Assembly (NCBI GenBank): GCA_030264375.1
Contig: JASCQW010000162.1
Coordinates: 96,169,805-96,233,804 of the forward strand
From: Carcharhinus longimanus
Lineage: Eukaryota
DNA: 64,000 bases
Direction of reading: 5' to 3'
Made by a program: the position numbers. Shown piece after piece: positions 24,001 to 27,000 of the stretch (the first letter of the stretch is position 1; the number at the start of each line of letters is the position of its first letter).

Positions 24001-27000
24001 TTAAAAATGTAATCACACATTGTGTCTGCAGTCCTTCCTGCCACCGCGAGTTAGCTGATGAATTCGCAGCTTTAAAACCCTGCCACTGCTCTGAAAAATT
24101 TACAATCAAAGCCAGCTGCTTTCGTGAATTTTTAATGGCACTTTTCTACCTATCAATACCCGTTTGTAACCACATTTAGTAAGTCACTTCTTCCCCCACT
24201 ATGTTGTATGCCTCGCCACCACGGCCAGTCAGAACAGAGAATTTGGCACTCAGCCAAATCTCCACTCACAGCAGGAAGACTGGAGATTCCTAGCCTCGGG
24301 TGAGGTCAGAGAATTCCAGCCTTGGTCTTTCGTGGACGTTGACAAGGTGAATTGGCTACCTGTCGTTGTCAAGTGGCTAGCGCTGCCACGACACCCCTAA
24401 ATCCTGCCTCGGGGAAATGGCTAGGGATGGGATGGAGCCAGGGAATTAATCAGCAGCGGAAAAGTCCACATCAATCCATCTTTCTGCCCACCTTCATCTC
24501 AGAGTTCTTCGGCGGTGGATGTAGTAGGTCGATAATGCTCATTTGGATGCTGTATCTAGTTGAACAAAGAAATGCCGTCTTGTGCAATGAGTCAACTTGT
24601 CTTTGCCATTAGAAATACCTGGATTAAAGCACTCAGCGTCATTCATCACAATCCACATGAACATGACACTGAGACAATTGTAATCTCTTGATATTTGTCA
24701 GTGCATGTGCAATGTGTTGTGTTGGATCATCTCCCACATATATCTGTATATGCATATGTACAAATATGATACAAAAGATTGAATGATATCTGACAACTTT
24801 GCGAAGGTGTATTTGGTTTTTGACTTATAGATCAAAAACCAAATATAGATGTTAACCAGCTTCACCATCTCCAGCCCCATCAATTGGTTTTGAAATATAG
24901 ATGTTAACTGGCTTCACCACAACAAAAAGAAACATCTTGAAGATGAATCACTCGGATGCCGCAAGATGTTCCATAGGTATTGTTGTACATAAATTCAAGT
25001 GCTTCAGGAGTATTAGAAACAGGTTTTTACAAAAATGGGCGGCATGGACAAGTTGGGCCAAAGGGCCTGTTTCCATGCTGTAAACCGCTATGACTCTATA
25101 CATATGTGCACACAAACACTTAACGGACCCTCAGTCCATTAGAATAGTGTTAGTTTATACATCAGTGTCTTTTTTTTTGGTGGAATATGGATTCAATTAA
25201 AAAAAAATTGGAATTAAGAACCTATTGGTGATCACGAATCCATTGCAGTTCATTTGGCTCATTAATGTCCCTTTTAGGGAGGGAAATCTGCCCTCCTTAC
25301 CCCGTTCTGGCCTACATGTGACTCCAGAGACACTGCAATGTGGTTGACTCAACTGCTTCTCCAAGGGCAACTAGGGATGGGCTCACAGCCAGCGACACCC
25401 ATGTCCCACAGATAGGGAGGAATAGAAGAGCCTCTCTCCCCAATTAAAGGCTCGCTTTGAGTCCAACACCAAGCGGCCCAACCCTGTGGAGGCAGCCGGG
25501 GGGGCGGGCCGCACTCTGCTGCCTTTGGCACTCACCTCCTGCAACTTCTCGTTGTCCTTGGCTTCCTCCAGCCAGCACTGCAGGAGAGGCTTCAGCTTAC
25601 ACATGTTCTTGTAGCTCAGCTGGAGAGCTTCGAACCTGCAGATGGTCGTCTGGCTAAACATCTTGCCTGGGGGGGGGGTGGTGGGGACAACAAAAAGAAG
25701 AAAGGCAGCTTGAGAATGGCCAGCTCCCACTCGCCAAGGAATAAATGCCAACTCTGGAGGATGCCAGCCTGAGGTGGACCACCTCACAAAACCTGCTCCC
25801 GGGCAAACTTGCCAACAGATCCAGACAGAGGGTGACCGAGGGGGGGTCATCCTACTGGCAGATAGTAGCAGCCCTGGTACAAGAGCATGTCCACCAATGC
25901 TGCCAAGACCTGTGGGCACCGTGGGGGTTGGGGATGATGTACGTAGCAGTGAACAGCATGGACCATTCTGGCAGCAAACAGCAATCATGTAAAACTGAAG
26001 ACAGCTTGAATGAAATATGCTGCCTACAAAGCAATGACCAGGTCGATCCCATGCCACTGGGCGGCACGGTGGCATAATGGTTAGCACTGCAGCCTCACAG
26101 GGCCAGGAACTCGGATTCAATTCCGGCCTCGGGGACTGTCTGTGTGGAATTTGCACATCCTCCTCATGTCTGCATGGGTTTCCTCCAGGTGCTCTGGTTT
26201 CCTCCCACAATCCAAAGATGTGTGGATAAGATTAGGCTATGCTAAATTGCCCCTTAGTGTCATGGGGATTAGCAGGGTAAATACCTGGGTTTACAGGGAT
26301 AGGGCCTGGGGGGGACTGTTGTTGGTGCAGGCTCGATGGGCCAAATGGCTTTCTTCTGCACTGCAAGGGTTCTATGATTCTATGCAAACATAACGCATTG
26401 CGCTCTGCCATTACAGCACTTGCTGCAAAGTTTATTTATTAGTCACAAGTAAGGTTTACATTAACACTGCAATGAAGTTTCTATGAAATTCCCTAATTGT
26501 CACAGTCCAGCACTTGTTTGAGCCAATGCACCTAACCAGTACATTCCTCAGAATGTGGGAGGAAACCGGAGCACCTGGAGGAAACCCACACAGACATGGG
26601 GAAAAAGTGCAAACTCCACACAGACAGTGACCCAAGCCTGGAATTGAACCCAGGTCCCTTGTGCTGTGAAGCAGCAGCGCTAACCATTGTGCTACCATGC
26701 AGCCCCAGTTGTGGAAAGGAAATAAATGAAAACAATAGGCTTAGAGCAAGGTTGATGTTGTGTTAAAGTATGTGCATACTGTGCAGGTGTTGGTCAGCTG
26801 TAGATGGAGAAAACAAATTGAATAAAATTAAAGGTTATAGGATGAACTTTGTGTTACATAGTTGATTAAGATACCCAAATTGACAAACCAGAAAGGAGAA
26901 AATCATGGTGACTCAATCATTATGGAAGAAAACTGACATGCGCACTAAAATAATCACAATACAATTTTATAGAAGAACTCTTACTGTAAGAGACAGACAC

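What the first reader, a model, noticed from the sequence alone, without database searches (positions are those of the whole stretch)
25415..25932. Orphan OCT4/POU5F1-type exon 3 with flanking intron DNA in a shark TE desert
Seen: a 131-bp exon with canonical splice sites and an open frame encoding half of the POU-specific domain, inside a GC-rich island. I found no POU5 exon 2, homeodomain exon or WFCNRRQK motif elsewhere, although gaps could hide them. Known: cartilaginous fishes carry POU5F1 and POU5F3, and processed OCT4 pseudogenes lack introns. This copy keeps intron flanks, so it is not a processed retrocopy. It shows F>Y in LSFKNM and a Cys at the K/R position before W (TGC, possibly CpG decay of CGC). 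Inference: a transposed gene fragment, or a real POU5 gene with very long introns.
Basis: partly seen in the sequence, partly recalled or inferred. Interest (0 to 1): 0.8.

Follow-up and report, generated by a model that had tools for sequence, protein, structure and literature searches.

The report
Lone shark POU5 exon 3
A single, intact exon of a shark OCT4-family (POU5) gene sits alone among repeats and assembly gaps, and it is most likely an ordinary piece of the real gene rather than a stray fragment.

Summary
Window 25536-25666 (minus strand) is a 131-bp exon with a pyrimidine-rich tract, cag acceptor and gtgagt donor. It encodes the second half of a POU-specific domain plus the start of the linker (Pfam Pou E 7e-18; best solved-structure matches are POU5F1). 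Similarity stops exactly at the splice sites, so it is not a processed retrocopy.

tblastn with 120 POU5 proteins and a POU5 profile over 3,704 six-frame pieces found no other POU5 exon in the window.

The "orphan" reading is not established:
- The exon lies on a 9.8-kb contig between two 100-N gaps, so only introns of at least 3.0 and 6.6 kb are certain.
- Its closest relatives are elasmobranch proteins that NCBI names POU5F3(-like), at 88-93% identity.
- The Cys also occurs in a lungfish POU5 and the Lys in a frog POU5.
- The exon differs from the elasmobranch consensus at 3 of 42 residues, within the 0-3 range of annotated orthologues.
- The adjacent SINE copy has drifted about 15% from its family majority while the exon stayed intact.

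Most likely (about 0.62) this is an ordinary exon of the real gene. A young dead duplicate remains possible (about 0.23). Interest is low.

The parts
25536..25666 (-). POU5 exon 3 equivalent: 131 bp, phase 1 in and phase 0 out. [quoted passage not shown]
   Evidence: sequence and translation; Pfam Pou E 7.3e-18; POU5F1 structures E 2.8e-18; 120 of 120 POU5 queries hit here; profile E 3.8e-26, profile positions 38-84 of 156.
25667..25709 (-). 3' splice site: cag acceptor (ag = 25667-25668) preceded by a pyrimidine-rich tract of about 40 nt, including a run of 10 C.
   Evidence: Read directly. Protein similarity to orthologues begins at the Gly codon that spans this junction.
25530..25535 (-). 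5' splice site, GAG|gtgagt.
   Evidence: Read directly. Similarity to orthologues ends at ...LQE, and beyond it the window reads VSAKGS where orthologues read LCSIEQ.
25410..26054 (.). Single-copy, GC-rich island (GC about 0.56, CpG o/e about 0.26) holding the exon and its proximal intron flanks.
   Evidence: no other copy in the window between about 25410 and 26050; composition.
25178..25408 (+). Interspersed repeat abutting the island on the exon's downstream (donor) side. It ends about 125 bp from the donor.
   Evidence: three other copies in the window (58784-59038, 30162-30371, 54120-54268) at 72.5-73.9% identity.
26055..26400 (+). SINE-like repeat of about 345 bp abutting the island on the exon's upstream (acceptor) side. 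Its 5' end lies at the island's edge.
   Evidence: 18 other hits in the window at 71-83% identity, most starting at query positions 1-6; 49 of 322 aligned positions (15%) differ from the majority of nine other copies.
22533..32312 (.). The gap-free contig that carries the exon. It is bounded by the 100-N runs 22433-22532 and 32313-32412, and it sets the only firm minimum intron sizes (at least 3,003 bp downstream, at least 6,646 bp upstream).
   Evidence: list of N runs; arithmetic from the exon coordinates.

Best explanation
This is the ordinary third coding exon of a real elasmobranch POU5 gene, the paralogue whose products NCBI labels POU5F3(-like).

It would be spliced through its cag acceptor and gtgagt donor to partner exons that are not visible here. 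Exon 2 carries the first half of the POU-specific domain. Exons 4 and 5 carry the linker and the homeodomain. These partners lie outside the 64-kb window in long repeat-filled introns, sit in one of the ten N runs, or belong to contigs that the scaffold places elsewhere.

Shown: the exon, its splice signals, its family and its elasmobranch affinity. Inferred: that it is spliced and functional, and where its partner exons are.
For: 1. The frame is intact and the splice signals are canonical and strong. Homology boundaries coincide with the ag and gt.

2. In a tree of 45 rows the exon falls inside the clade of 7 elasmobranch POU5 proteins (support 98/96*). Identity is 93% to Scyliorhinus torazame and 91% to Rhincodon, Pristiophorus and Carcharodon.

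3. Its divergence is ordinary. It differs at 3 of 42 residues from the consensus of the 7 elasmobranch orthologues, which themselves differ at 0-3 (Carcharodon 3).

4. Every deviating residue occurs in an annotated POU5 protein:
- Y in LSYKNM in 7 of 7 elasmobranchs.
- Cys before W in lungfish P0009. That site is R 93, K 37, S 9, C 1 of 140 named proteins.
- Lys at POU79 in frog P0017.
- Leu at POU80 in 102 of 140.

5. The neighbouring SINE copy differs at 49 of 322 positions (15%) from the majority of nine other copies. An exon drifting neutrally that far would keep no stop, its AG/GT and at most 3 residue changes with P = 0.00006 at d = 0.15 and P = 0.0054 at d = 0.10.

6. The island's edge coincides with the SINE's own 5' end. 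That pattern is expected if repeats inserted into old unique DNA around an exon.

7. Only 9.8 kb around the exon is gap-free, so the certain introns of at least 3.0 and 6.6 kb are unremarkable. Shark introns are reported to be lengthened by repeats (10.1101/2025.06.08.657570 and 10.1101/443036, passages read).

8. All vertebrate Pou5 genes are reported to have five coding exons with conserved boundaries (PMC9492771, passage read).
Against: No exon 1, 2, 4 or 5 was found in 25.5 kb downstream or 38.3 kb upstream:
- 9 chondrichthyan queries at E<=10.
- 120 queries at E<=0.01.
- A POU5 profile with filters off over 3,704 pieces, which gave only two noise hits at E 4.8 and 6.6.

If the scaffold is right, both flanking introns are very long for this gene. 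The Callorhinchus partial protein, which spans exons 2-5, comes from a contig of only 10,779 bp.

No protein in the searched collection carries this exact exon; the best is 93%. I could not look inside the 90% clusters (one search did not complete).

Two of the three deviations (R>C, N>K) hit sites that are invariant in the 9 chondrichthyan sequences I saw. POU79 is among the linker positions reported as important for reprogramming (PMC9492771, passage read).

No expression data and no nucleotide sequences of orthologues were available, so no dN/dS was computed. No neighbouring gene was found to test synteny.
Confidence: 0.62

Rival explanations
1. A non-functional genomic fragment. In this reading a DNA-level duplication or transposition copied exon 3 with its intron flanks away from the parent POU5 gene, or it is the last relic of a recently lost paralogue. 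The fragment is drifting neutrally but is still too young to show stops.
For: - It is the only POU5 exon in 62,679 resolved bases.
- No exact protein match exists.
- It shows three residue changes, two at sites invariant in the other chondrichthyans. One of them, CGC>TGC, looks like CpG decay (inference).
- Neutral drift of about 3% gives a mean of 3.0 residue changes and leaves the exon intact in half of the simulations (P = 0.50 at d = 0.03). A young copy therefore fits.
Against: - An old fragment is disfavoured. The adjacent SINE has drifted about 15% while the exon has not.
- A young fragment must have been copied together with those old repeats. The parent locus would then have the same long repeat-filled introns that the real-gene reading needs.
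- The island's edge lies at the SINE's natural 5' end rather than inside a split repeat.
- Three differences from consensus are no more than the annotated Carcharodon orthologue shows.
Confidence: 0.23
2. A scaffolding artefact. The exon is real, but its 9.8-kb contig (22533-32312) was joined to unrelated contigs, so the apparent solitude comes from the assembly and not from the genome.
For: The window has 10 N runs, 5 of them exactly 100 N, and the exon's contig is bounded by two of these. The Pou5 paper reports a reversed exon order in the hagfish as a likely assembly error (PMC9492771, passage read).
Against: Nothing in the window speaks for a wrong join. The same repeat families occur on both sides of the gaps, though that is expected anywhere in such a genome. 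This reading overlaps with the best explanation, since the exon would still be an ordinary gene exon.
Confidence: 0.1
3. A processed (retrotransposed) OCT4-like pseudogene fragment.
For: None found here. It is considered only because such pseudogenes are well known in mammals (recalled, not tested).
Against: Similarity stops exactly at a cag acceptor and a gtgagt donor. No sequence from exon 2 or exon 4 abuts the exon.
Confidence: 0.01

Closest known systems
Elasmobranch POU5 proteins that NCBI names 'POU domain, class 5, transcription factor 3(-like)': Scyliorhinus torazame, Rhincodon typus, Pristiophorus japonicus, Carcharodon carcharias, Leucoraja erinacea, Mobula birostris, Chiloscyllium plagiosum
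   Same: Identity is 88-93% over the exon. They share the LSYKNM signature (7 of 7) and the EEAKDNE-type linker start, and form one clade with the window exon at 98/96* support.
   Different: The window has Cys for Arg before W, Lys for Asn at POU79, and Leu for Phe at POU80; Leu is shared with Carcharodon. Only this one exon is present in the window, and none of these proteins matches it exactly.
Mammalian POU5F1/OCT4 (solved structures such as 8g87, 3l1p, 6ht5)
   Same: These are the best solved-structure matches, aligned over all 43 residues including the linker start NE-LQE. The 131-bp length of human exon 3 is recalled, not tested.
   Different: 35 of 43 residues are identical. Whether the shark gene is the POU5F1 or the POU5F3 orthologue stays open: the 91/84 branch is unstarred and the AU test gives p = 0.196.
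Second elasmobranch POU5 paralogue (Hemiscyllium ocellatum P0056, also named POU5F3-like)
   Same: Same family and the same exon equivalent.
   Different: 79% identity, with LSFKNM and LNDAENNGGLQE instead of LSYKNM and [12 protein letters not shown]. It lies outside the clade that holds the window exon.
Processed OCT4 pseudogenes (mammals; recalled)
   Same: Both are stray POU5-like coding sequence away from a complete gene.
   Different: Processed pseudogenes lack introns and carry adjoining exons fused together. Here a single exon is bounded by splice signals and intron-like DNA.

Membership tests
POU-specific domain (Pfam PF00157) | Match to the family profile above the curated cut-off | tested here: met
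   E 7.3e-18, 64.7 bits against a cut-off of 27. Only profile positions 37-71 of 72 are covered, as expected for one exon.
POU-specific domain (Pfam PF00157) | The whole domain (first half, profile positions 1-36) is encoded at the locus | tested here: not met
   Nothing in the window matches the first half. It may lie outside the window or in a gap.
POU class 5 (POU5F1/POU5F3) | Closest to class 5 rather than classes 2, 3, 1 or 6, including the linker start | tested here: met
   The 7 best PDB sequences are POU5F1 and align over residues 1-43. Classes 3, 2, 1 and 6 align only to about residue 36-38 and with weaker E-values. All named top hits are class 5, except one turtle protein labelled class 3.
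POU class 5 (POU5F1/POU5F3) | POU5 synapomorphies L(POU16), K(POU19), C(POU115) (PMC9492771, passage read) | not testable with these tools
   These residues lie in the exon 2 and homeodomain parts, which are not in the window.
POU class 5 (POU5F1/POU5F3) | Five coding exons with conserved boundaries (PMC9492771, passage read) | tested here: inconclusive
   Both boundaries of exon 3 fit: orthologue similarity starts and stops at ag and gt. The other four exons were not found in the window.
POU class 5 (POU5F1/POU5F3) | POU homeodomain (WFCNRRQK helix) encoded downstream | tested here: not met
   No homeodomain match anywhere in the window. The motif scan found only a spurious WYCN at 54596-54607. 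tblastn and the profile search found nothing.
POU5F1 as against POU5F3 | Groups with the osteichthyan POU5F1 clade, or with POU5F3 | tested here: inconclusive
   The tree puts both chondrichthyan groups on the POU5F3 side of an unstarred 91/84 branch. Holding group A with POU5F1 costs 4.72 lnL, p-AU 0.196, which is not rejected. The paper says the osteichthyan hallmark residues are not kept in chondrichthyans. Synteny could not be tested because no neighbouring gene was found.
Processed pseudogene / retrocopy | Adjoining exons fused, no intron flanks | tested here: not met
   One exon only, bounded by cag and gtgagt, with no similarity beyond them.

The most novel reading that the evidence does not exclude
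The exon is a stand-alone copy of a POU5 exon that selection has kept intact apart from any homeodomain exon. It might serve as an exon of a lineage-specific chimeric or truncated transcript encoding half a POU-specific domain, or belong to a third, unannotated shark POU5 paralogue.

Two observations leave room for this. The exon has stayed intact while the SINE beside it drifted about 15%. Its frame is open for 282 codons, the longest N-free open frame in the window, with both flanks open in 5 of 20,000 shuffles.
Probability: 0.05. Interest if true: 0.6.

Novelty: already known. Interest (0 to 1): 0.15.

Why it matters
If this is the ordinary exon, it matters only for annotation. A POU5 gene model in this assembly is probably broken by gaps or long repeat-filled introns, and the exon could be missed or called an orphan.

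It also corrects two tempting misreadings. LSYKNM is the elasmobranch norm, not decay. Both shark POU5 paralogues carry the same "POU5F3-like" label in NCBI names.

If it really were a selected stand-alone half-domain exon, it would be an unusual case of exon-level duplication of a pluripotency factor. The evidence does not favour that.

Tried and rejected
1. Exon 1 candidates. The N-terminal domains of 5 full-length elasmobranch POU5 proteins gave hits of 22-33 bits at 14.6-15.0 kb (minus) and 22.5-22.9 kb (plus). I rejected these as compositional. 60 shuffles of each query scored up to 34.7-42.7 bits, and 39-58 of each 60 hit the same two places. With composition-based statistics the best E-value was 0.5. 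The 14.6-kb site also lies on the wrong side of exon 3.

2. Same-locus relatives. I searched with the read-through frame including the intron flanks (residues 58-282 of the 282-codon frame). Of 2,785 hits among 3,774 candidates, with 120 listed, none covered the flanks at high identity. The widest coverage was 60% at 37-39% identity, in two mammalian POU5F1 proteins, which I take to be compositional.

3. Cluster members of the 9 chondrichthyan hits, to look for an exact match. The query did not complete, so this stayed unchecked.

4. Pfam on the 20 longest N-free open frames. Only 1 of 20, the POU frame, has any family. Short exons of other genes may therefore have been missed, and synteny (Npdc1/Fut7 or Tcf19/Cchcr1) is untested. 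Two bird POU5-NPDC1 fusion models among the 120 tblastn queries gave no hit outside the exon, which is weak evidence.

5. Rfam (0 matches) and ARAGORN (0 tRNAs).

6. CpG island at the exon: rejected (o/e 0.25-0.27).

7. POU5F1 versus POU5F3: not resolved.

Only one exon exists here, and it was searched on its own.

9. Supplementary Data 1-2 of PMC9492771 may hold shark Pou5 coordinates and intron sizes.

10. The N runs were left as they are.

Full report
**What is there.** On the minus strand, window 25536-25666 is a 131-bp exon. It is preceded by a pyrimidine-rich tract of about 40 nt ending in cag, and followed by gtgagt. It enters in phase 1 and leaves in phase 0. Its 43 full codons read [43 protein letters not shown].

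Pfam's Pou model matches at E 7.3e-18 (64.7 bits, cut-off 27) over profile positions 37-71 of 72, the second half of the POU-specific domain. Of the 22 distinct PDB sequences that match, the seven best are all POU5F1/OCT4 constructs (E 2.8e-18 to 5.5e-18). They align over all 43 residues including the linker start. Classes 3, 2, 1 and 6 align only to about residue 36-38.

**Not a retrocopy.** In tblastn with 9 chondrichthyan POU5 proteins, similarity begins at the Gly codon that spans the acceptor and ends at ...LQE. Beyond the donor the window reads VSAKGS where the orthologues read LCSIEQ. Before the acceptor it reads TTPPP where they read GALY.

**Is it alone?** Within the window, yes.
- A motif scan found QTTI, LS[FY][KR]NM and RFE.L only at the exon. 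The only WFCN-like match was a spurious WYCN at 54596-54607.
- tblastn with 9 chondrichthyan proteins at E<=10 and with all 120 stored hits at E<=0.01 (120 of 120 hit the exon, 0 hits elsewhere) found no other exon.
- A profile HMM of 25 named POU5 proteins (156 positions) was searched with filters off over 3,704 six-frame pieces. It found the exon at E 3.8e-26 and otherwise two noise hits at E 4.8 and 6.6.
- Weak hits of the proline-rich N-terminal domains at 14.6-15.0 kb and 22.5-22.9 kb are compositional. Shuffled queries scored as high or higher, mostly at the same two places, and composition-based statistics removed them.

**How much does the solitude mean?** The window has 10 N runs totalling 1,321 N, five of them exactly 100 N. 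The exon's gap-free contig runs only from 22533 to 32312. The firm minimum introns are therefore 3,003 bp (downstream) and 6,646 bp (upstream), which is unremarkable. The values of >25 kb and >38 kb depend on the scaffold joins, and any gap could hide a 121-159-bp exon. I left the N runs as they are.

Shark genome papers describe introns lengthened by repeats (10.1101/2025.06.08.657570 and 10.1101/443036, passages read). Against that, the Callorhinchus partial protein that spans exons 2-5 comes from a contig of only 10,779 bp. If the scaffold is right, these introns are long for this gene.

**Whose exon is it?** The best named hits are elasmobranch proteins that NCBI calls POU5F3 or POU5F3-like:
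- Scyliorhinus torazame, 93%
- Rhincodon, Pristiophorus and Carcharodon, 91%
- Leucoraja, Mobula and Chiloscyllium, 88%

None is identical. I could not look inside the 90% clusters (one search did not complete), and several annotated sharks do not appear in the list, so the lack of an exact match says little.

In a maximum-likelihood tree of 45 rows and 156 columns, the exon sits inside the clade of these seven (98/96*). It lies outside the batoid pair (99/95*) and outside the Rhincodon-Chiloscyllium pair (98/86*), though only 43 of its columns are filled. A second shark paralogue (Hemiscyllium P0056, 79%) lies outside that clade.

Sukparangsi et al. 2022 (PMC9492771, passages read) report both Pou5f1 and Pou5f3 in all chondrichthyans analysed, with five coding exons and conserved boundaries. 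They also report that the osteichthyan hallmark residues are not kept in chondrichthyans. My tree places both shark groups on the POU5F3 side of an unstarred 91/84 branch. Forcing the exon's group to join POU5F1 is not rejected (p-AU 0.196). F1 versus F3 is open, and "POU5F1-type" is not established.

**Are its oddities signs of decay?** Mostly not.
- LSYKNM is found in 7 of 7 elasmobranch orthologues, and in 7 of the 140 named proteins examined overall. Three further named proteins did not fit the pattern used; their sequences, printed, show that two of these frogs also have Y.
- The site before W is R 93, K 37, S 9, C 1 of 140. The one Cys is lungfish P0009, which reads LLQCWL exactly like the window.
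- Lys at POU79 occurs in frog P0017, and in 0 of the 140 that fit the pattern.
- Leu at POU80 is the majority state (102 of 140).
- The window differs from the consensus of the seven elasmobranch orthologues at 3 of 42 residues. The orthologues themselves differ at 0, 1, 1, 2, 2, 2 and 3.

On the other side, R>C and N>K hit sites that do not vary in the 9 chondrichthyan sequences I saw. POU79 is also among the linker positions the paper lists as important for reprogramming. TGC could be CpG decay of CGC, which is an inference.

**A clock from the neighbours.** The exon lies in a single-copy island (about 25410-26054) between an interspersed repeat (25178-25408, three other copies at 72.5-73.9%) and a SINE-like element (26055-26400, 18 other hits at 71-83%). 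The SINE's own 5' end is at the island's edge. That SINE copy differs at 49 of 322 positions (15%), plus 27 indel columns, from the majority of nine other window copies. Subfamily structure and CpG decay inflate this figure.

I simulated neutral substitution in ag+exon+gt, ignoring indels. The chance of keeping no stop, both splice dinucleotides and at most 3 residue changes was:

| Divergence d | Probability |
|---|---|
| 0.03 | 0.50 |
| 0.05 | 0.18 |
| 0.08 | 0.025 |
| 0.10 | 0.0054 |
| 0.15 | 0.00006 |

An exon that had sat dead beside this SINE since its insertion is therefore unlikely. A young duplicate stays possible, but it must have been copied together with the old repeats. Its parent locus would then have the same long repeat-filled introns.

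**Context.** At least 17.3% of the resolved bases have another copy inside the window, which is a lower bound on repeats. Of the 20 longest N-free open frames, only the POU frame has a Pfam family. Rfam and ARAGORN found nothing. The exon's island is GC-rich (0.56-0.57 against 0.417) but as CpG-poor as the rest of the window (o/e 0.25-0.27 against 0.24), so it is not a CpG island. No neighbouring gene was found, so synteny is untested.

**Verdict.**
- Most likely (0.62) this is the ordinary exon 3 of the real elasmobranch POU5 gene. Its partner exons are outside the window, in gaps, or on contigs placed elsewhere.
- A young non-functional duplicate or relic is the main rival (0.23).
- A processed retrocopy is excluded.

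The kind of thing is already known, and interest is low.

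Noticed in passing
window 25386-26231 (minus): The exon's frame is open for 282 codons, the longest N-free open frame in the window (the next is 162). There are 188 stop-free codons upstream and 50 downstream, against 9 and 6 stops in the other two frames. The upstream flank stayed open in 21 of 20,000 mononucleotide shuffles and both flanks in 5 of 20,000. Pfam sees only the Pou half-domain. 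This is post hoc, and probably chance in GC-rich DNA.
   Followed up: partly
window, e.g. 10200-10503, 11850-12176, 26055-26400, 31827-32144, 55369-55677, 60407-60754: One SINE-like family of about 330-345 bp has 19 hits in the window at 71-83% identity to the copy beside the exon. Copies differ by 14-25% from the majority of the others. Neither ARAGORN nor Rfam recognises a tRNA head. I did not establish a family name; a resemblance to elasmobranch tRNA-derived SINEs is recalled only.
   Followed up: partly
window 22533-22911: A 12-bp tandem array (about 31 copies, 78% matches) starts right after the 100-N gap 22433-22532. It translates to Pro/Ser/Thr-rich peptide and attracts spurious matches from POU5 N-terminal domains.
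   Followed up: yes
window 14300-15100: The most GC-rich spot in the window (GC 0.65 in 14501-15000) has low CpG o/e (0.28) and strong G over C skew. It has proline-rich open frames on both strands without a Pfam family. Its nature is unknown.
   Followed up: partly
window 47859-48061: A 25-bp tandem repeat with 8.1 copies and 94% matches.
   Followed up: no
window 301-800: The only 500-bp stretch with GC >= 0.5 and CpG o/e >= 0.6 (0.51 and 0.66), the nearest thing to a CpG island in the window.
   Followed up: no
proteins P0012 and P0056: Two clearly different POU5 paralogues from the same shark family, Chiloscyllium plagiosum and Hemiscyllium ocellatum, are both named POU5F3-like by NCBI. 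The literature reports one Pou5f1 and one Pou5f3 in sharks, so one of the two sets of names is probably off.
   Followed up: partly
protein P0003: Scyliorhinus torazame isoform X2 (184 aa) starts at the Met that is the second codon of the exon 3 equivalent. This hints at transcripts that begin in or near intron 2 in that species.
   Followed up: no
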